Assembly: GCF_009914755.1 (NCBI RefSeq)
Contig: NC_060935.1
Source: the human T2T-CHM13v2.0 reference genome, Homo sapiens
DNA: 64,000 nucleotides
Direction: 5' to 3' (one strand)
Shown here: positions 1-9,834 of the stretch, piece by piece
How positions within the stretch are numbered: the first letter of the stretch is position 1
Layout of the letters: every line of letters begins with the position of its first letter
The notes under the pieces: generated by a model
Databases searched by the model: none
What the model saw: only the letters and a program-made list of their open reading frames with translations
Told to the model about the DNA's origin: nothing
Translations under genes and position numbers: made by a program

Positions 1-29
1 TTTAAAGGGTACTTTAGATAGAGAAAAAT

Positions 30-1140
30 GTTTCCTAGGGTGTGCCAACATTGAGGAGACAAAGAACTAGAAAAGGAGATAAAAAGTTTCCAGTGAAATA
101 GGGATAAAGACATAAGGTTGTGGTATCTTGGAATTACATAAAGACAATATTCAAAGGAAAAAGAAATAACTGTGTCATACACTCCTAATAGGTTTAATGT
201 AGCAAAAAATGGTCCTTAAACTTAGCAATATCTTGGTAATTTTTATCTTTAAAGAGAGACATTGTGGAATGATATAAGCAAGAGATCTTATAAAAGTTCA
301 AGGGAAGAAGGGGGGATAATAATTGAATACTTTTACCATATACAGCACTTCTAAGGAGTCTTGTTGTAATAAAAATCAGGTGAGAGAAATGATAAGGTCA
401 TGATAATTTTATTTAAAAGAGAACTTTTTATATAGTTATGAGAACATTCTAACAAGCATACAAAAAATTGATGCTGAAAGAGAGACAGAAGGAATCATCT
501 GGAGAGATGTCCTTGAACAGTGAAGATGGAATGGAATTCAACATACACAAATACAGGGATTGGCCTTTAAGAGATGTACAGACATCATTCATGTGACTCA
601 GCTCATATTAATGAAACAAGGCTGAGTGTATGCGTGTACAGGCAGATGGTGGGAGCATGTGAGGGACTGTCTCTTCTGATTGCCTCTATTTTCTTAATAA
701 AATAGAAAGCAGCACCATCAAGAAGGTCAGAAAGGTATGGGTTTGAGGAGAGAGGCTAAGATGTTAATTATCCATCCTGTATTATGGGAGAGTAAATGGA
801 CCAGGAAAATGAAGTAGTGTTTCTTGGAATCTCACAAAGCCCACTGGAAGTCAGTTATCACACATTGAGTTCTTTCAGCATGATACTGTATTCTTTGGCT
901 ACAGAGTGTGTCGACAGTTGGACTTAAATTAGCAGGGGAGAGAGTTAGCCTGGGAAAAAAAACAGTCCAGGGTGAAGAGCAGTGTGCCTGAAGGTGCATT
1001 GAAGGAATTGAGTAAGGTTACGAATTATGAACTTTAACCTGGAAATGGAGGGAGTTGAGGAAATGAGAGCAGGGTGAAAGAGAGTGAAAGAGTGTTAGGA
1101 TCAGTAGATTGTAGGTCTTGAAGTAGTTGAGATGCCAAAC
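30..1140 (-). mobile_element. Degenerate L2 fragments
   Basis: Purine-rich old LINE2-like texture. Boundaries are approximate. Confidence 0.45.
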
Positions 1141-1157
1141 AGAAAGAGATGAAATTA

Positions 1158-1539
1158 TGTATTAGTCTGTCTCCACCCTGCTATAGAGAACGTCTCCAAA
1201 CTGAGTGATTATAAGGGAGAGATTTAATTGACTCACAGCTCCATGTGGCTAGCGTGGCCTCAGGAAACTTACAATCATGATGGAAGGCAAAGGGGAGGCA
1301 GGCACCTTCTTCACAAGGTGGCAGTAGAGAGAATTGACTGAAGGTGGATCTTGACAAACACTTATAAAACCATCAGCTCTCATGAGAACTCACTATCACA
1401 AGAACAGCACGGGGGAAACTGCCCCCCTGACTCATTTACCTCCGTTTGGTTTCTGCCTTCACACCTGGGGATTATGAGGATTACGGAGATTATAATTCAA
1501 GATGGGATTTGGGTGGGGACACAAAGTCTAACCATATTA
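1158..1539 (-). mobile_element. THE1/MSTA-type MaLR solo LTR
   Basis: tgtattagtc start; gcctcaggaaacttacaatcatg, gagaactcactatcac and gatttgggtggggacaca...accatat motifs. Confidence 0.88.
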
Positions 1540-2199
1540 AATAATATAAGATGTACAGAAAAACACACTTAAATGTAGCAAGGGGATGCAGCTATATTCC
1601 ACCCTCAACAGATTTCTGCATTTGTTAATTTAATTTAGTCTCACAAAGTTGAGCGTTAGATAAAGTCCTATCAATGAAACAACATTTCCCACTTATTTAT
1701 GCTAATATATTTTCAGAGATGAGAATCCTCAGAACTAAGACTGAGGAGTGGGGAAACTCTGAGGATATGTCATAGAAAAGGGCTGGGCAGCTAAGAGGGC
1801 ACCAAGTTGGAGAGTTAAAAATATCCCTGAGAGAGGAGGAGACCCCACAATACTGTAAATCAGTTGCACTAAGACCATACAACTGATGAAAGCCACTTTC
1901 TAAGGACTGGGCTTATTTGTCAAATAGAATGGAAATGGTAATGCAGGGGGTTCCAGACCATGTCCAGATCTTGAAAAGGCCTCTTCATCCCTTATGTCTG
2001 AACTCACTTTTACTGAAATCTGTGTGCAGTGCCCTGTGTGGAGCAGGCAGGAAGCTATGATACTGCTGTGTGCACACCCTCTGCAGGACCATCTTCTCCA
2101 CACCTAATCCACTTGAATTGATTTAACAAAAGTGGGTCTCTGTTGAGGATGAAACATAACTGAATCCACTTTCTCTGTTGAAATTCAAGTATTGGCATT

Positions 2200-3619
2200 T
2201 CTGTCTATTTCATCTTATTATTCCATCTCTTTTTGTCTAGGATCCCAACTCCTTCAATACTTAAAATAGACTGATTTTAACACCCTTTCAGTTTCTGCGC
2301 CTTGCATCTATTTCTTCAATTCCCTCCCTCACCGGGTTAGAGTCCGTGGTCCATAACATTATTCACTTCCTTCAGTGAGCCTTCAACTACACTGCCCTTC
2401 ACCATCAATTATTTTAACAGACTAACCTCTCTAACCCCCAATTTAAATTCAACTATTAATAGACTATAGCTAGAGAACACTGATCTTCAAAACTATTGAA
2501 TGCTTCCTTGTCTGTATTGAAAGACTTTCGCTTCCTTTCACTTTGTGACATTCCACTTTCCTACTTTTTTCCTTCCCTTTCCAGATTCGAGTAGCTCTGC
2601 TTTTCTTCAAAAAAAATGCTAATGTTGGTCAAAATTCCATTTTCAACACCCTATTTCTTATTTCACATACTTCCTTGGCAAGCTTGTCTATTCTCAGTTT
2701 CAATAACCATCTATTTGGTTACCATTTCATAATCTCTCTGACGAACCTGCGTCTTCCTTACGTCTGCAGAATCTTAACATCAACATGAATGTCCTGGAGG
2801 CACCATAGGCTCTCCATGTGTCTAAAACTGAATTCATGAGCCTTTACCTCAAGCTCTTGCCTTTTCCTTCATTCTTACCTATCTTCTAGTGGAGGCAACC
2901 TTGCCTGATTTTTCACTTTTCTTTAGTGCCTCCAATCAAATAAACCAATAATCTTATTTACTATTCCCATACGTATTATCTCCCCATTTCTGACCAATCT
3001 TTGCCTATATTACAGCTTTAGACCCTTGAGTCATCTTTATTTGGTCTTGTTCAAATATGGCACTACAGCCAGAGTGATCTAGAACTTACGTTGCTCTCCT
3101 TTCAAAGCTGTACCAGTTTAACATGACATGCTAGACGTTTCATCATCGGCACCTTGTTTACTTATTCAGCCTTACATGTCCTCCCACCTCTCTCCCTCAT
3201 AATACCCTGCGCTCCTATTTTAATCCACCAAGCAGGCCATGGTGCCTTTACTTTCAAGGTTTTTATATATTTTCTTCCCTGTCTAGAGTATCTTTCTTTC
3301 CCTACTGAAGACTTGACTGAGCTAATCACTAATGAACTTTCAGGACTCAGTTTAGATAGAATATCCACTGGAAAGCATTTTCTGATGACTTAAAGCTGAA
3401 TGAGAGTTTTCTCTACCCATGCGGGGAGCCCATAGGTCCTTGAATTTACTTTTATATCACATGATACTAACATTGTATGAATACTGCCTTTTTTTCCCAC
3501 TAGATCGTAGCTCCTTGAGGGCTAGGGCAGGATTATTCACTTTTGTTTCCCTAGCATTTGGCACCTACTAAGTTGTTATCACATGTTTGTTGAATGAATG
3601 CTTGAATGAATGAATGAAT
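2200..3619 (+). mobile_element. L2 3' portion
   Basis: ctccttgagggctagggcagg...tttggcacctactaag...tgtttgttgaatgaatg(aatg)n is the characteristic L2 3' tail. Confidence 0.7.
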
Positions 3620-4644
3620 CAATTGCCACATTTCTAGTAACAGCTTTGCGTTCACATTAATTGATGAAAAGGGAATCTTTACTGCAACAGATAAAACTGA
3701 TTACATAACAAAGGAAGACCTGGCGTAGTGCGCTTAGCCAAATTAGCATTTGGCTCATCTCTGTATGGAGTGGCACAAGCCCATTTGTGTACCACTTAGT
3801 ATTTGGTTAAAATATGTATAAGATTTATAGCCACAATGATGTTCCTGGCCTTTTTAAACCTTACTATGGCCTTTCTACTTTTCAAGTTTTTCATTGATTA
3901 TTCTTATCTGGCTTTAAGAACTATAAACCACATTATCATACTTCACTGTAATTGTTAATACTAGTCTGGGATAGTTTTTTTTTTTTTTTTTTTTTTTTTT
4001 TTCCTTTATAAATGAGCAGGGCAGAGAGTTAAAACACAAAGCAATAGATTGCACTGAGAAATGAATACGTTCAGAAACTACAACTACAAACTACCTTAAA
4101 GGAAAACTCATTCACTTTTCATTACCTTACACCTCTAGGTGCCAAAACTTGCATTTAATTCCATGTTTTAAAGGAGACTTTATGTCTACCCATAATCTGT
4201 TCACATATAGTTTGCCCAAGGGAGGTTAACTCTTTTCAGTTAAAATTGATCCACCTTCATCAGACTTGTGGTTGACCAGCAAAGAGTCAAGGACATGAAT
4301 CTCTTAACACCTCCTGATGGTCTTGGGCTACACATATCATGCTCATTTTAAGTGTGGAAAACATCTAAAAATATACTTTTTAGAGTTTCAGAGAAATCAT
4401 ATTTACAGCTTCACAGAACAGAAAATATTAAACTTAATTTGATGCTTAACACCTAAAGTGTTATTTTCAAATCATAGAAAAATGCTTTTTGCATTCTAAA
4501 ATATCTCTGTAAGACAGCATAATTATTCTAAATAATTTTAATTAATTATGAGAAAGCTTACTTACAGTGATACTTTTTTTAATCAAAAATTTAGTTAGCA
4601 ATGATTATTAAGTTTAAAGGCCAGATACTCTGAACAAAACTACC

Positions 4645-4937
<293 letters not shown>

Positions 4938-5664
4938 ACAAACTGCCAGAGTCTTAGAAGTATTTCCAAGATCAGCAAATTGTCCAGCTTAATTGATACT
5001 GTACATATAAAAAATTTCCAATTCCTTATTTCTCTTTAGAGTTCATCATAATTAGTTTGTATTTTTAAAAATTTGATCCATATACTAAACTTATTGTTTC
5101 TTATGGACATAAAGGAAAGTTAGTTCAATCCATTTTAGGCAGGATGCTCAACCTTTCTAACCAAACACCTTAGGAATTAAAATATGAAATTTATCAATAA
5201 TCAATAAAAATGAAAATTTCATCATTGTTTCCCCACTTAATAGTATTAATCTGTACACATTAGATAATAAAACCTAGAAAATAAATTTCATTCATTTTTT
5301 TATGTACCAGAGTGAATTTGACTACTTTTCAAGAACATGAGGTATTACTTAGAGCCTAGTTAAAACACATGTGCTACATTGAACACACCTCATACTACAT
5401 AATAAATTTTAGTAAATGAAGTTCCTATCTATGTTTGTAGAATATAAGTGAAATGTTGGTTTCCTCACTGCATTTTAATAATAAGGAAAGAACTGATCTA
5501 TGTGAATGGGTATTGTAATATTAAGGTAAACTTTTAAAAGTTAATTTACAAATTTTCCTGACAAAGTATAAAGCTTGGGCTCTTGACTGTCTTCCCTTCT
5601 TTCCTACTTACCTCTCTCTCTCTACTTGCTTTCTTCCTTCCCTTCTGCCATCATTTTTCCTTTT

Positions 5665-6886
5665 CCCTCTCCTCTCCTCCCCTTCCCTCCCCTCTTCTCC
5701 CCTCCCCTCCCCTCCCCTCTTGTCCCCTCCTCTCTTCTCCCCTCCCCTCCCCTCCCCTCCCCTCTCCTCCCCTCCCCTCTCCTCCCCTCCCCTCTCCTCC
5801 CCTCTACTCCCCTCCCCTTTCCTCCCCTCCCCTCTCCTCTCCTCCCCTGTTCTCCCCTCCCCTCCCCTCCCCTCTCCTCTCCTCCCCTGTTCTCCCCTCC
5901 CCTCTCCTCCCCTGTTCTCCCCTCCTCTCCCCTCCCCTGTTCTCCCCTCCTCTCCCCTCTCCTCCCCTCCCCTCTCCTCTCCTCCCCTGTTCTCCCCTCC
6001 CCTCTCCTCCCCTGTTCTCCCCTCCCCTCCCCTCTTGTCCCCTCCCCTCTTCTCCCCTCCCCTCCCCTCCCCTCTTGTCCCCTCCCCTCCCCTCTTCTCC
6101 CCTCCCCTCCCGTCCCCTCCTCTCTTCTCCCCTCCCATCCCCTCCCCTCCCCTCTCCTCCCCTCCCCTCTCCTCCCCTCCCCTCTCCTCTCCACTCCTCC
6201 CCTCTCCTCTCCTCCCCTCCCCTCTTCTCCCCTCCCCTCCCCTCTTCTCCCCTCCCCTCCCCTCTTCTCCCCTCCCCTCCCGTCCCCTCCTCTCTTCTCC
6301 CCTCCCCTCCCCTCTTCTCCCCTCCCCTCCCGTCCCCTCCTCTCTTCTCCCCTCCCCTCCCCTCCCCTCCCCTCCCCTCTCCTCCCCTCCCCTCCCCTCC
6401 CCTCCCCTCTCCTCCCCTCTCCTCCCCTCTCCTCTCCACTCCTCCCCTCTCCTCTCCACTCCTCCCCTCTCCTCTCCTCCCCTCTCCTCCCCCTCCCCTC
6501 TCCTCCCCTCCCCTCCCCTCTCCTCCCCTCCCCTCCCCTCCCCTCTCCTCCCCTCCCCTCTCCTCTCCTCCCCTCCCCTCCCCTCCCCTCTCCTCCCCTC
6601 CCCTCCCCTCTCCTCCCCTCCCCTCTCCTCCCCTCCCCTCTCCTCCCCTCCCCTCCCCTCTCCTCCCCTCCCCTCCCCTCTCCTCCCCTCCCCTCCCCTC
6701 CCCTCCCCTCCCCTCTCCTCCCCTCCCCTCTCCTCCCCTCCCCTCCCCTCTCCTCCCCTCCCCTCCCCTCTCCTCCCCTCTCCTCCCCTCCCCTCCCCTC
6801 TCCTCCCCTCTCCTCCCCTCCCCTCTCTTCCCCTGTTCTCCCCTCCCCTCTCCTCCCCTCTCCTCCCCTCCCCTCCCCTCCCCTCC
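5665..6886. repeat. Polypyrimidine pentanucleotide array A, (CCCCT/CTCCT)n with variant units, about 1.2 kb
   Basis: Almost purely C/T on the + strand with 5-nt periodicity and interruptions cctgttct, cttgtc, ccgtc, ccac. Confidence 0.98.
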
Positions 6887-7300
6887 TTTCCTCAATATTA
6901 TAGCTAGTAGAATTTTCAGAAAATATTAAAAAATATAAAAGTAACATTTTTTCACACTCTCACTGTAATCTGAATTTGCTTGCAGCTCCAAAGAAGGTTT
7001 TTAGTAATGTCTTCAAAGAAACAATCTTCATAAGAAAAAAATAAACTAGTTTCCTCAAAATTCAGATTTTATTATATTTTTTCTCTTACAGAGTATTCAA
7101 AAGCTCTTCCTGGTCTCTCCACTTCATATGCTGCTTTGTTAAGAATTAAGAAGAGTTCATCTTCATCTCTCTTTGGTTCCAAAACCAGACCACGATACAG
7201 CAGCCCTTCATTAGGAACACTGAGTGCTTCTTCACCCAGCTGGCGAGGGGCAGCTCAGAATTATTATTCCCCCATCAGTCTTTATCATTCCTCAGATGCC
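6886..7300 (+). repeat. Direct repeat, copy 1 (unique portion); partner is 8596-9010
   Basis: Base-by-base comparison shows 4 substitutions in about 415 bp (6893, 7103, 7245, 7278). Confidence 0.97.
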
Positions 7301-7306
7301 AACTGA
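7092..7306 (+). pseudogene. CNTN5: Truncated duplicate of CNTN5 exon 4 (first 209 of 222 nt, donor lost) ending ...SDAN-stop
   Basis: 7092-7300 equals 8802-9010 (offset 1710) except 7103 g/t, 7245 g/t and 7278 g/a. The upstream acceptor region is identical. It is followed by AAC TGA (7301-7306) in frame. Confidence 0.95.
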
Positions 7307-7307
7307 G

Positions 7308-7685
7308 GAACCAGGCATTATTTTGTCGATAGATCCAAAATTGACAAAGGTAGACAACATCTAGAAAATGTTATTCAAACTATAAAGCCAATAGCTGTAG
7401 AGCAGTCTTTAATTTAACTGATATCTTAGTGTTGGATATATAGATTTTTTCTTATTTTCCATTCATAAGTAATGCTAAGTATATACTTATCTTTGCGTGC
7501 TCTCTTTATTATTTTCTTACACAGAATACACTTCCAGAAATAAAACCACTGGATTGAAGGATAGGTCTGTTTTATGTTTCCGATATTCACTGTCAAATTG
7601 GCCTTCCAAAAATGTCTATTTTTACTTTCATTCTACGAGAGTATTTAGTCTTAATCCTAAATTATAATTGGTATAGAGTGCAATT
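7308..7685 (-). repeat. 378-bp inverted copy of intron segment 9457-9834
   Basis: gaaccaggcattattttgtcgat...gtatagagtgcaatt is the reverse complement of aattgcactctatac...ataatgcctggttc. Only two mismatches were seen (7331, 7341). Confidence 0.97.
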
Positions 7686-7697
7686 CGAATAGAGTGC

Positions 7698-8596
7698 TCT
7701 CCTCCCCTCCCCTCCCCTCCCCTCCCCTCTCCTCCCCTCCCCTCCCCTCCCCTCCCCTCCCCTCCCCTCCCCTCCCCTCTCCTCCCCTGTTCTCCCCTCC
7801 TCTCCCCTCTCCTCCCCTCCCCTCTCCTCTCCTCCCCTGTTCTCCCCTCCCCTCTCCTCCCCTGTTCTCCCCTCCCCTCCCCTCTTGTCCCCTCCCCTCC
7901 CCTCTTGTCCCCTCCCCTCTTCTCCCCTCCCCTCCCCTCTTGTCCCCTCCCCTCTTCTCCCCTCCCCTCCCCTCTTCTCCCCTCCCCTCCCGTCCCCTCC
8001 CCTCCCCTCCCGTCCCCTCCTCTCTTCTCCCCTCCCCTCCCCTCCCCTCCCCTCTCCTCCCCTCCCCTCTCCTCCCCTCTCCTCCCCTCCCCTCCCCTCT
8101 CCTCCCCTCTCCTCCCCTCCCCTCTCCTCCCCTCCCCTCTCCTCCCCTCCCCTCTCCTCCCCTGTTCTCCCCTCCCCTCTCCTCCCCTGTTCTCCCCTCC
8201 CCTCTCCTCCCCTGTTCTCCCCTCCCCTCTCCTCCCCTGTTCTCCCCTCCCCTCTCCTCCCCTGTTCTCCCCCTCCCCTCTCCTCCCCTGTTCTCTCCTC
8301 CCCTCCCCTCTCCTCCCCTCCCCTCCCCTCTCTACTCCTCCCCTCTCCTCTCCTCCCCTCCCCTCTCCTCTCCTCCCCTGTTCTCCCCTCTCCTCCCCTG
8401 TTCTCCCCTCCCCTCTCCTCCCCTGTTCTCCCCTCCCCTCCCCTCTCCTCCCCTCCCCTCTCCTCCCCTCCCCTCCCCTCCCCTCCCCTCCCCTCTCCTC
8501 CCCTCCCCTCCCCTCTCCTCCCCTCCCCTCTCTTCCCCTGTTCTCCCCTCCCCTCTCCTCCCCTCTCCTCCCCTCCCCTCCCCTCCCCTCCCCTCC
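7698..8596. repeat. Polypyrimidine pentanucleotide array B, (CCCCT/CTCCT)n, about 0.9 kb
   Basis: Same units and the same terminal segment (tcttcccctgttctcccctc...ccctcctttcct) as array A. Confidence 0.98.
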
Positions 8597-8801
8597 TTTC
8601 CTTAATATTATAGCTAGTAGAATTTTCAGAAAATATTAAAAAATATAAAAGTAACATTTTTTCACACTCTCACTGTAATCTGAATTTGCTTGCAGCTCCA
8701 AAGAAGGTTTTTAGTAATGTCTTCAAAGAAACAATCTTCATAAGAAAAAAATAAACTAGTTTCCTCAAAATTCAGATTTTATTATATTTTTTCTCTTACA
8801 G

Positions 8802-9023
8802 AGTATTCAAAATCTCTTCCTGGTCTCTCCACTTCATATGCTGCTTTGTTAAGAATTAAGAAGAGTTCATCTTCATCTCTCTTTGGTTCCAAAACCAGAC
8901 CACGATACAGCAGCCCTTCATTAGGAACACTGAGTGCTTCTTCACCCAGCTGGCTAGGGGCAGCTCAGAATTATTATTCCCCCATCAATCTTTATCATTC
9001 CTCAGATGCCTTCAAACAAGATG
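8802..9023 (+). CDS. CNTN5: CNTN5 coding exon (exon 4), 222 nt, phase 1-1, encodes (E)[73 protein letters not shown] (residues 19-92)
   Basis: Acceptor ttttttctcttacag|AG at 8801/8802, donor GATG|gtaagt at 9023/9024. The translation matches the contactin-5 N-terminal extension after the signal peptide. Length is 74 codons and it splices in frame to the exon at 34088. Confidence 0.97.
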
Positions 9024-9028
9024 GTAAG

Positions 9029-9390
9029 TGTCAAAGGAAAATGGCTCCAGATAGAATAAAGGAGGCAAAGAAGACTTATTTAATACTGTTGCAACAGAGA
9101 TCAAGACTATTCCAGTAGGAGAGAGTGATTGAACTCAACTCTGCTAAAAATGAAAGCAGGAGAGTTTTTAAAGCTGGGGTGAGCTAGTAGAAAACTGGAG
9201 GATGTTAGGGGAGATACTGGTAAATGTGACTAGGCCATCTGTGTTTATTGATTGGTGCTTGTTGAAGTTAGGCTACTACCTTTTCATAGAGACTGGGAGA
9301 TAGAGAACCTGTTTCTTGATGGTTTCATTTCAAATGGAGAGCTCCCAGGCCTTGAGACAGACACTACTGGGTTATAAAAATGACAAGAGC
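9029..9390 (-). mobile_element. MER67-like (ERV1) LTR fragment abutting the exon-4 donor
   Basis: tgtcaaagg start; attgaactcaactc, ggggtgagctagt, taggccatctgtgttt, gaagttaggct and agagactgggagatag match my recall of the MER67C consensus. Confidence 0.65.
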
Positions 9391-9456: not shown

Positions 9457-9834
9457 AATTGCACTCTATACCAATTATAATTTAGGATTAAGACTAAATA
9501 CTCTCGTAGAATGAAAGTAAAAATAGACATTTTTGGAAGGCCAATTTGACAGTGAATATCGGAAACATAAAACAGACCTATCCTTCAATCCAGTGGTTTT
9601 ATTTCTGGAAGTGTATTCTGTGTAAGAAAATAATAAAGAGAGCACGCAAAGATAAGTATATACTTAGCATTACTTATGAATGGAAAATAAGAAAAAATCT
9701 ATATATCCAACACTAAGATATCAGTTAAATTAAAGACTGCTCTACAGCTATTGGCTTTATAGTTTGAATAACATTTTCTAGATGTTGTCTACCTTTGTCA
9801 TTTTTGGATCCATCGACAAAATAATGCCTGGTTC
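9457..9834 (+). repeat. Source arm of the 378-bp inverted repeat; largely an old L1M/L1ME ORF2 3' fragment
   Basis: Reverse complement of 7308-7685. The stretch ggaaggccaatttgacagtgaatatc...cctatccttcaatccagtggttttatttctggaa resembles degenerate L1 ORF2 end sequence (subfamily uncertain). Confidence 0.85.

What the first reader, a model, noticed from the sequence alone, without database searches (positions are those of the whole stretch)
7092..7585. The truncated exon copy looks like a complete new terminal exon encoding a secreted 89-aa CNTN5 peptide
Seen directly: the acceptor and about 200 bp of upstream intron (branch point and polypyrimidine tract) are identical to those of the real exon and come first in the pre-mRNA. 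The frame runs ...HSSDA-N-TGA (7304-7306). The inverted segment then supplies, on the sense strand, AATAAA at 7539-7544 followed about 20 nt later by a GU/U-rich tract (ggtctgttttatgtttcc, 7564-7581), the canonical poly(A)-site layout. The strong donor that would recruit U1 and suppress cleavage is missing. Inference: exon 3 spliced to 7092 with polyadenylation near 7560 gives an NMD-immune mRNA encoding signal peptide (1-18) plus a 71-aa Ser-rich peptide with no Ig/FnIII domains or GPI anchor. This would also divert transcripts from full-length CNTN5 in an allele-specific way.
Basis: partly seen in the sequence, partly recalled or inferred. Interest (0 to 1): 0.85.

Follow-up and report, generated by a model that had tools for sequence, protein, structure and literature searches.

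The report
Decoy CNTN5 exon with poly(A) signal
An old rearrangement in an intron of the human brain gene CNTN5 left a truncated exon copy with everything the sequence needs to end the message early, but nothing yet shows that cells use it.

Summary
Every sequence statement in the finding holds. 6894-7300 repeats 8604-9010 (198 nt of intron plus the first 209 nt of CNTN5 exon 4) with three mismatches. A 7-nt filler (7301-7307) supplies an in-frame TGA. An inverted copy of downstream intron (7308-7685 = reverse complement of 9457-9834) puts AATAAA (7539) and a GU/U-rich tract on the sense strand. No good donor follows. Exon 3, located in the same genome, gives 18 codons plus one base, so the product would be 89 aa.

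New here:
- The structure looks like a template-switch duplication/inverted duplication anchored in (CCCCT)n tracts.
- The copy keeps two ancestral residues (A23, R70) that the working exon has lost. L70 is absent from chimpanzee and macaque. The copy is therefore old, not a fresh private event.
- A published Japanese data set suggests the copy is common and missing from GRCh38.
- The inverted arm holding the poly(A) signal can pair over 378 nt with the intron beyond the real exon 4. That could mask the signal and favour exon-4 skipping or circularisation.

No RNA evidence could be reached. Use as a terminal exon is plausible but unproven, and I judge it most likely a minor product.

The parts
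5587..6895 (+). First (CCCCT)n-type pyrimidine tract (about 1.3 kb) upstream of the copy
   Evidence: hub repeat mask; 803 of 890 aligned columns match the second tract. The sequence is low-complexity, so collinearity is not established.
6894..7091 (+). Copy of the last 198 nt of intron 3 (branch-point region, pyrimidine tract, acceptor AG)
   Evidence: 0 mismatches to 8604-8801
7092..7300 (+). Copy of the first 209 nt of the 222-nt exon 4. It lacks the last 13 nt (9011-9023) and the donor.
   Evidence: 3 mismatches (7103, 7245, 7278), all non-synonymous: real to copy S23A, L70R, N81S
7301..7307 (+). 7-nt junction filler AACTGAG, found in neither parent at that place; holds the in-frame stop TGA at 7304-7306
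7308..7685 (+). Inverted copy of intron 4 sequence 9457-9834
   Evidence: 378 nt, 2 mismatches (7331, 7341); duplex -639.0 kcal/mol with 376 of 378 nt paired
7347..7355 (+). Best donor-like site after the copy, AAG|GTAGAC (GT at 7350); weak
   Evidence: 5 of 9 consensus matches, U1 duplex -6.5 kcal/mol, rank 136 of 3225 GT sites
7539..7544 (+). AATAAA hexamer, 447 nt after the acceptor and 233 nt after the stop
7562..7581 (+). GU/U-rich downstream tract
   Evidence: best 18-mer has 15 G+T, 11 of them T; 6 of 93 AATAAA sites in the window do as well
7686..7693 (+). Second junction. The filler and the first base of the pyrimidine tract (7685-7694) repeat the arm's TATAGAGTGC (7673-7682); after them the tract runs on.
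7694..8604 (+). Second (CCCCT)n-type tract (0.9 kb) between the copy and the real exon
8802..9023 (+). Working CNTN5 exon 4 (74 codons' worth; a known cassette exon), donor ATG|GTAAGT at 9024
   Evidence: hub annotation; exon skipped in NM_175566 according to PMC11781355
9457..9834 (+). Parent of the inverted arm. It starts 434 nt after the real donor, and the partner of the AATAAA lies at 9598-9603.

Best explanation
What it is. The stretch is the inner part of an old complex rearrangement of about 1.7 kb in CNTN5 intron 3. It is a direct duplication of the intron 3/exon 4 boundary, joined by short fillers to an inverted duplication of intron 4 sequence, and it returns into a (CCCCT)n tract. 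The most likely origin is serial template switching of a stalled replication fork at that structure-prone tract.

What it leaves behind. Upstream of the real exon 4 there is now a decoy: an acceptor of the same intrinsic strength, a truncated exon with a stop, no donor, and a well-formed but accidental AAUAAA/GU-rich site.

How I think it behaves (inferred). Most transcripts ignore it, for three reasons. Nothing defines the downstream edge of the decoy as firmly as the strong donor defines the real exon. The poly(A) site lacks UGUA enhancers. The site can also be buried in a 378-bp duplex with the downstream intron. A minority of transcripts may splice exon 3 to 7092. Those would end either at about 7560, giving the 89-aa reading frame, or as stop-containing RNAs that are degraded.

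Status of the claims. Shown: the anatomy, the ancestry of the copy's residues and the 89-aa arithmetic. Inferred: the mechanism of origin, the age, the population frequency and all RNA behaviour.
For: Anatomy.

Junction signatures: a 7-nt filler at the first junction; at the second, bases 7685-7694 repeat the arm's TATAGAGTGC before the repeat tract runs on.

Not an assembly artefact and not recent:
- The two copies differ at 5 of 785 positions, or 0.64% (95% interval 0.21-1.49%). The chance of 5 or more at a typical human diversity of 0.1% is 0.0013.
- At two of the three exon differences it is the copy that carries the ancestral residue. A occurs in 38 of 45 and R in 40 of 45 mammalian contactin-5 sequences, gibbon included. 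Chimpanzee and macaque have R where human has L (PMC11781355 Table S3).
- No R70 was among the 12 variants found by Sanger sequencing of 302 people. Those primers amplify only the real exon: the reverse primer has one site, at 9091.

Probably common and absent from GRCh38: rs10790978 G is 0.146 by Sanger but 0.405 and filter-failed in a short-read panel. This is what mis-mapped reads from the copy would produce.

For low use:
- weak best donor;
- 0 UGUA in 7400-7560, against 4 within 130 nt upstream of the true CNTN5 3' end;
- the arm containing the poly(A) signal pairs with 9457-9834 at -639 kcal/mol;
- exon 4 itself is a cassette exon.
Against: The acceptor context is identical to the real one over 198 nt and is transcribed first, at the end of a 264-kb intron.

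By my crude measure the downstream element (15 of 18 G+T) is at least as good as that of the gene's true poly(A) site (13 of 18).

The partner arm is transcribed only about 1.9 kb later, so cleavage could come before pairing.

No expression data of any kind were available, so 'minor' is a judgement and not a result.

That GRCh38 lacks the copy is inferred from one paper's table, not seen.
Confidence: 0.55

Rival explanations
1. The copy is a working alternative last exon. Exon 3 splices to 7092, cleavage and polyadenylation follow the AAUAAA at 7539, and the stable mRNA yields an 89-aa precursor. That precursor is a signal peptide plus a 71-aa serine-rich peptide, which is secreted. The process also lowers full-length CNTN5 output from that allele.
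For: All the required sequence elements are present. The frame and length are confirmed with exon 3. There is no strong U1 site between acceptor and hexamer. The downstream element ranks among the best 6 of 93 AATAAA sites in the window and is no worse than that of the true 3' end. The would-be 3' UTR is short, about 250 nt.
Against: No RNA or protein evidence is available. There is no UGUA upstream. The poly(A) site lies in a 378-nt arm with a near-perfect partner downstream. The allele is old and probably common, which argues against a strong loss of CNTN5 output, though it does not exclude a tolerated one. The peptide matches no Pfam family (0 families), has no N-glycosylation sequon and is 20 of 70 serine; it looks like a disordered linker, not a folded ligand. 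Eight full-text literature searches found no report of such an isoform.
Confidence: 0.2
2. A decoy or poison exon. The acceptor at 7092 is used, but the RNA is not cleaved at 7560. It is spliced onward from the weak donor at 7350, or it runs on to the real donor at 9024. Either way an internal exon with a premature stop results and the RNA is removed by nonsense-mediated decay. The effect would be a lowering of CNTN5 output that leaves little trace in steady-state RNA.
For: There is an in-frame stop at 7304-7306. AAG|GTAGAC at 7350 is the best donor-like site in 7092-8801. The acceptor is identical to the real one.
Against: The donor is weak: 5 of 9 matches, -6.5 against -11.0 kcal/mol, rank 136 of 3225. 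An exon running from 7092 to 9023 would be 1.9 kb and would contain 0.9 kb of pyrimidine repeat, which is unusual for an internal exon.
Confidence: 0.1
3. The main consequence is the RNA hairpin, not the decoy exon. The arms 7308-7685 and 9457-9834 bracket the real exon 4 and pair in the pre-mRNA. Pairing would loop the exon out (more of the known exon-4-less isoform), promote back-splicing of exon 4 into a 222-nt circular RNA, and create a long duplex open to adenosine deamination. This can hold together with any of the other readings.
For: 378 nt, 376 paired, -639 kcal/mol. The left arm ends 1117 nt before the real acceptor and the right arm starts 434 nt after the real donor. Exon 4 is already a cassette exon of 74 codons, so skipping it keeps the frame. 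That flanking inverted repeats promote circularisation and skipping is established knowledge (recalled, not looked up here).
Against: There are no RNA data. A search for CNTN5 circular RNAs in the paper library found none. Helicases, editing and co-transcriptional splicing may prevent or dissolve the duplex.
Confidence: 0.2
4. An assembly artefact in a low-complexity region, so that no such haplotype exists.
For: The structure is flanked by long (CCCCT)n tracts, which are hard to sequence.
Against: The copies differ at 5 sites, and two of these are ancestral states in the copy. A false duplication would not create such differences. The junctions are clean and unique. An independent population data set shows the anomaly expected from an extra copy carrying G at the rs10790978 position.
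Confidence: 0.02

Closest known systems
Intronic polyadenylation / alternative last exons that give truncated soluble forms of membrane proteins (for example soluble FLT1 and other receptor decoys; recalled, not looked up here)
   Same: A 3' splice site followed by a stop and a poly(A) site inside an intron would yield a signal-peptide-bearing product without the membrane anchor.
   Different: Here the exon was created by a structural rearrangement, not by an evolved regulated site. The product would contain no folded domain at all. No transcript evidence exists.
Complex duplication / inverted-duplication rearrangements attributed to replication template switching (FoSTeS/MMBIR; recalled)
   Same: A direct duplication sits next to an inverted duplication of nearby sequence. 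Short fillers and a stutter lie at the junctions, and one breakpoint lies in a structure-prone repeat.
   Different: It is very small (about 1.7 kb) and old. It is probably a common polymorphism and not a disease-causing new event. No clear microhomology is seen at the first junction.
Exons flanked by inverted repeats (usually Alu pairs) that promote circular RNA formation and exon skipping (recalled)
   Same: Complementary sequences lie in both introns flanking a single exon, within about 1.1 kb and 0.4 kb of it.
   Different: The arms are unique sequence and not transposons. They are far closer to perfect (376 of 378) than typical Alu pairs. They are present only on the haplotype with the rearrangement.
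CNTN5 isoform without exon 4 (NM_175566, as described in PMC11781355)
   Same: It concerns the same 74-codon exon, whose inclusion is already variable.
   Different: That isoform skips the exon and keeps the rest of the protein. The product proposed here keeps most of the exon and loses everything else.

Membership tests
Alternative last exon / intronic polyadenylation isoform | A competent 3' splice site | tested here: met
   198 nt of intron and the first 11 nt of the exon are identical to those of the annotated exon 4. Competence is inferred from that identity.
Alternative last exon / intronic polyadenylation isoform | Poly(A) signal hexamer with a downstream GU/U-rich element at the right spacing | tested here: met
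   AATAAA at 7539-7544; 18-mer with 15 G+T from 7562; comparable to the true CNTN5 3' end. UGUA enhancers are absent.
Alternative last exon / intronic polyadenylation isoform | No competing strong 5' splice site between acceptor and poly(A) site | tested here: met
   Best site at 7350, -6.5 kcal/mol, against -11.0 for the real donor
Alternative last exon / intronic polyadenylation isoform | Transcripts that splice into the exon and end in poly(A) there | not testable with these tools
   No human RNA data were within reach. Searches of the paper library found none.
Template-switch complex rearrangement (duplication plus inverted duplication) | Direct and inverted duplicated segments of nearby origin joined in one block | tested here: met
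   6894-7300 is direct and 7308-7685 is inverted; the parents lie 1.3 to 2.5 kb downstream.
Template-switch complex rearrangement (duplication plus inverted duplication) | Junctions with microhomology or short templated insertions | tested here: inconclusive
   Junction 1 has a 7-nt filler without evident microhomology. At junction 2, bases 7685-7694 repeat the 10 nt at 7673-7682.
Template-switch complex rearrangement (duplication plus inverted duplication) | An unrearranged allele exists (other humans or an outgroup) | not testable with these tools
   Only indirect evidence: the anomaly at rs10790978. No other human or ape genome was available.
Inverted-repeat-flanked exon (circular RNA / skipping) | Complementary sequences in both flanking introns | tested here: met
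   The arms bracket 8802-9023; 376 of 378 nt paired, -639 kcal/mol.
Inverted-repeat-flanked exon (circular RNA / skipping) | Back-splice junction or genotype-dependent skipping observed | not testable with these tools
   No RNA data; the literature search came back empty.
Poison (NMD) exon | An internal exon with both splice sites and a premature stop | tested here: not met
   A stop is present, but only a weak donor-like site exists.

The most novel reading that the evidence does not exclude
An ancient and still-segregating human-lineage rearrangement makes the output of the autism-linked gene CNTN5 depend on genotype in two coupled ways. First, a decoy exon 4 ends a share of transcripts early and yields a secreted 89-aa peptide. 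That peptide preserves the pre-human residues A23 and R70. Second, a near-perfect 378-bp inverted repeat around the real exon 4 sets how often the poly(A) site is hidden and how often exon 4 is skipped or circularised.
Probability: 0.1. Interest if true: 0.7.

Novelty: new member of a known kind. Interest (0 to 1): 0.42.

Why it matters
CNTN5 is a neuronal adhesion gene studied in autism and hyperacusis. If the copy is common, three things follow.

1. It is a ready-made natural experiment. Existing brain RNA-seq with matched genomes can show whether a rearrangement-born exon, poly(A) site and RNA hairpin change isoform output.

2. It distorts genotyping of exon 4 on references that lack it. 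The anomaly at rs10790978 shows this. I predict the same at the positions 142 and 175 nt downstream, where reads from the copy would mimic L70R and N81S.

3. The copy is a small molecular fossil. It keeps the residue (R70) that the working human exon replaced after the split from the chimpanzee.

If the copy is unused, it is one more neutral intronic rearrangement.

Tried and rejected
- Error-prone repair synthesis as the source of the mismatches. Rejected for two of the three exon differences, because there the real exon carries the derived state, not the copy.

- A recent event copied from a contemporary second haplotype. Unlikely: 5 differences in 785 nt (P = 0.0013 at 0.1% diversity), and no R70 among 302 people sequenced at the real exon.

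- Looking for the copy's reading frame in proteins predicted from public metagenomes, as a way to see it in other human-derived DNA. 10 hits, the best 91% identical and monkey-like, none human. This says nothing either way.

- Collinearity of the two (CCCCT)n tracts, to place the second breakpoint. 803 of 890 aligned columns match, but the sequence is too repetitive to decide.

- Pfam scan of the copy-encoded and exon-encoded peptides: 0 families each.

- Literature. Full-text searches for CNTN5 with the following terms found nothing on this structure or isoform: structural variant/T2T, intronic polyadenylation (13), truncated/secreted isoform (14), pangenome/insertion (30), Neanderthal/amino acid (27) and circular RNA (24). 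Only PMC11781355 bears on it, and only indirectly.

- The low call rate of the published W69G TaqMan assay. Its forward primer and the 3' 17 nt of its reverse primer match the copy, but the probes do not cover a difference between the copies. I draw no conclusion from it.

- The heterozygote excess at rs10790978 in the Sanger data (215/86/1, chi-square 6.26, P = 0.012). Noted, but too weak to interpret.

Full report
**What is there**

The window is human chromosome 11 (T2T-CHM13), inside CNTN5. Reading 6700-9300 and comparing at a fixed offset of 1710 nt shows that 6894-7300 repeats 8604-9010. That segment is the last 198 nt of intron 3 plus the first 209 nt of the 222-nt exon 4 (8802-9023). 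The intron part is identical. The exon part differs at 7103, 7245 and 7278.

The copy stops 13 nt short of the exon's end (9010 of 9023), so it has no donor. Seven bases that match neither parent (7301-7307) follow, and they contain an in-frame TGA at 7304-7306. Next comes 7308-7685, the reverse complement of 9457-9834: 378 nt with two mismatches. At the far end, bases 7685-7694 repeat the arm's TATAGAGTGC (7673-7682). The sequence then runs on through a (CCCCT)n-type tract (7694-8604) that resembles the tract before the copy (5587-6895).

A search of the whole assembly found only these pieces, plus a 60-nt, 83% match on another chromosome.

All of them hold.
- AATAAA is at 7539-7544 and is the only AATAAA or ATTAAA between 7092 and 7700.
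- The downstream 18-mer has 15 G+T. Only 6 of the 93 AATAAA on the + strand of the window do as well.
- As a control I fetched the annotated 3' end of CNTN5. Its AATAAA lies 29 nt before the end and its best downstream 18-mer has 13 G+T. By this crude measure the candidate is no worse.
- The true site has four UGUA within 130 nt upstream. The candidate has none in 7400-7560.
- Between 7092 and 8801 the best donor-like site is AAG|GTAGAC at 7350. It has 5 of 9 consensus matches and a U1 duplex of -6.5 kcal/mol, rank 136 of 3225 GT sites. The real donor at 9024 scores -11.0 and ranks 6.

I located exon 3 with a published primer. It has an ATG, 18 codons and a final G before CAG|GTAAAA, about 264 kb upstream. 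The G plus the AG at 7092-7093 makes codon 19, and 70 codons follow.

The 70 copy-encoded residues include 20 serines, no N-glycosylation sequon and one KK pair. They match no Pfam family.

**Age and origin**

All three exon differences change the protein: S23A, L70R and N81S, written real to copy. I aligned 45 mammalian contactin-5 sequences from the protein database.

| Site | Commonest residue | Count | Others | Copy | Real exon |
|---|---|---|---|---|---|
| 23 | A | 38 of 45 | T 3, V 3, S 1 | A | S |
| 70 | R | 40 of 45 | Q 4, P 1 | R | L |
| 81 | N | 40 of 45 | S 4, one gap | S | N |

The gibbon has A, R and N. The copy is therefore ancestral at two sites and derived at one, and the working exon is the reverse.

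A Japanese resequencing paper adds more (PMC11781355). I read passages, its Results section and its supplementary file.
- Chimpanzee and macaque have R where human has L.
- Among 302 people, Sanger sequencing of exon 4 found S23A (rs10790978; genotype counts 215/86/1) but no change at 70 or 81.
- The reverse primer of that assay has a single site, at 9091, so it reads only the real exon.

So L70 arose on the human lineage and is at or near fixation, and the copy was made from an exon that still had R70.

Together with the two differences in the inverted arm, the copies differ at 5 of 785 positions. That is 0.64%, with a 95% interval of 0.21-1.49%. It is about half the human-chimpanzee distance, a figure I recall and did not compute. 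It is improbable for two present-day haplotypes (P = 0.0013 at 0.1% diversity).

Error-prone repair synthesis cannot explain differences in which the copy is the ancestral one. These same points make an assembly artefact very unlikely.

The layout is a direct duplication, a filler, an inverted duplication, a stuttered filler and a return into a structure-prone repeat. This is what replication template switching produces. The mechanism is an inference.

**Is it a polymorphism?**

No other human genome was within reach. Indirect evidence comes from the same paper. The G allele of rs10790978 is 0.146 by Sanger sequencing, but 0.405 in the 60KJPN short-read panel, where it is flagged as having failed filtering. 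The copy carries G at exactly that position (7103).

If GRCh38 lacked the copy, reads from it would pile onto the real exon and make carriers look heterozygous. That raises the apparent frequency towards 0.5 and breaks Hardy-Weinberg proportions. If GRCh38 had the copy, I would expect the apparent frequency to fall, not rise.

I therefore think it likely, about three in four, that the copy is absent from GRCh38 and present on a large share of Japanese haplotypes. This is an inference from one table.

**What it probably does**

Nothing here measures RNA.

- The acceptor has the same intrinsic strength as the real one and is transcribed first.
- No strong U1 site follows it.
- The poly(A) layout is good.
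- The stop lies in what would be the last exon.

Against a major role:
- The strong donor defines the real exon, while only a poly(A) site without UGUA defines the copy.
- The real exon 4 is itself a cassette exon, skipped in NM_175566 according to the paper.
- The allele is old and probably common.
- The arm that carries the poly(A) signal can pair with 9457-9834 over 376 of 378 nt, at -639 kcal/mol. The hexamer's partner lies at 9598-9603, about 2 kb downstream. Whether cleavage or pairing wins is a kinetic question that I cannot settle.

The same two arms bracket the real exon 4. The left arm ends 1117 nt before its acceptor and the right arm starts 434 nt after its donor. From general knowledge, this geometry favours exon skipping, back-splicing and adenosine deamination. 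I list this as a rival or companion mechanism. A search for CNTN5 circular RNAs found nothing.

**Verdict**

My odds for the main fate of the copy:

| Outcome | Odds |
|---|---|
| Mostly skipped decoy, with at most a minor truncated product | about 0.55 |
| A real, readily detectable terminal exon | about 0.2 |
| A stop-containing exon removed by decay | about 0.1 |
| Assembly artefact | about 0.02 |

The remainder is left open. Separately, I give about 0.2 to the hairpin being the dominant effect, which is compatible with any of the first three outcomes.

Eight full-text searches found no description of the rearrangement or the isoform. Structural-variant catalogues and their supplements, which I could not search, may well list it as an insertion relative to GRCh38.

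As a kind of thing, it is a new instance of known classes: a template-switch rearrangement and a candidate intronic polyadenylation exon.

Noticed in passing
window 7308-7685 and 9457-9834: The rearrangement puts a 378-nt near-perfect inverted repeat around the working exon 4 (376 of 378 nt paired, -639 kcal/mol). This predicts haplotype-specific exon-4 skipping, a 222-nt circular RNA and heavy A-to-I editing of the intron.
   Followed up: partly
window 8955 (real exon) vs 7245 (copy): Human L70, next to the conserved W69, is a human-lineage change. Chimpanzee, macaque, gibbon and 40 of 45 mammals have R. The decoy copy still encodes R.
   Followed up: partly
window 8813 / 7103; GRCh38 chr11:99,819,555: rs10790978 (S23A) coincides with a difference between the copies. 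It is 0.146 by exon-specific Sanger sequencing but 0.405 and filter-failed in a short-read panel. The G allele at the real exon is the ancestral state. It could be an old polymorphism, or the result of exchange with the copy.
   Followed up: partly
window 6969 and 8679; 7203 and 8913; 7284 and 8994: Published CNTN5 exon-4 assay primers have second sites in the copy: the Sanger forward primer, the TaqMan forward primer and the 3' 17 nt of the TaqMan reverse primer. Short amplicons in this exon may co-amplify the copy in carriers. That TaqMan assay had a 90.5% call rate in controls.
   Followed up: partly
window 5587-6895 and 7694-8604: There are two long (CCCCT)n-type tracts, 1.3 and 0.9 kb, each ending 198 nt before an exon-4 acceptor. 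The RNA would carry kilobase C/U-rich tracts and the template strand is G-rich. The tracts are a likely cause of the replication accident, and they are possible binding platforms for pyrimidine-tract proteins near both acceptors. They also give long open frames in all six frames, which are not genes.
   Followed up: no
window 9055-9060: An AATAAA lies only 32 nt after the real exon-4 donor. It illustrates how common unused hexamers are in this AT-rich intron: 93 AATAAA on the + strand in 64 kb.
   Followed up: no
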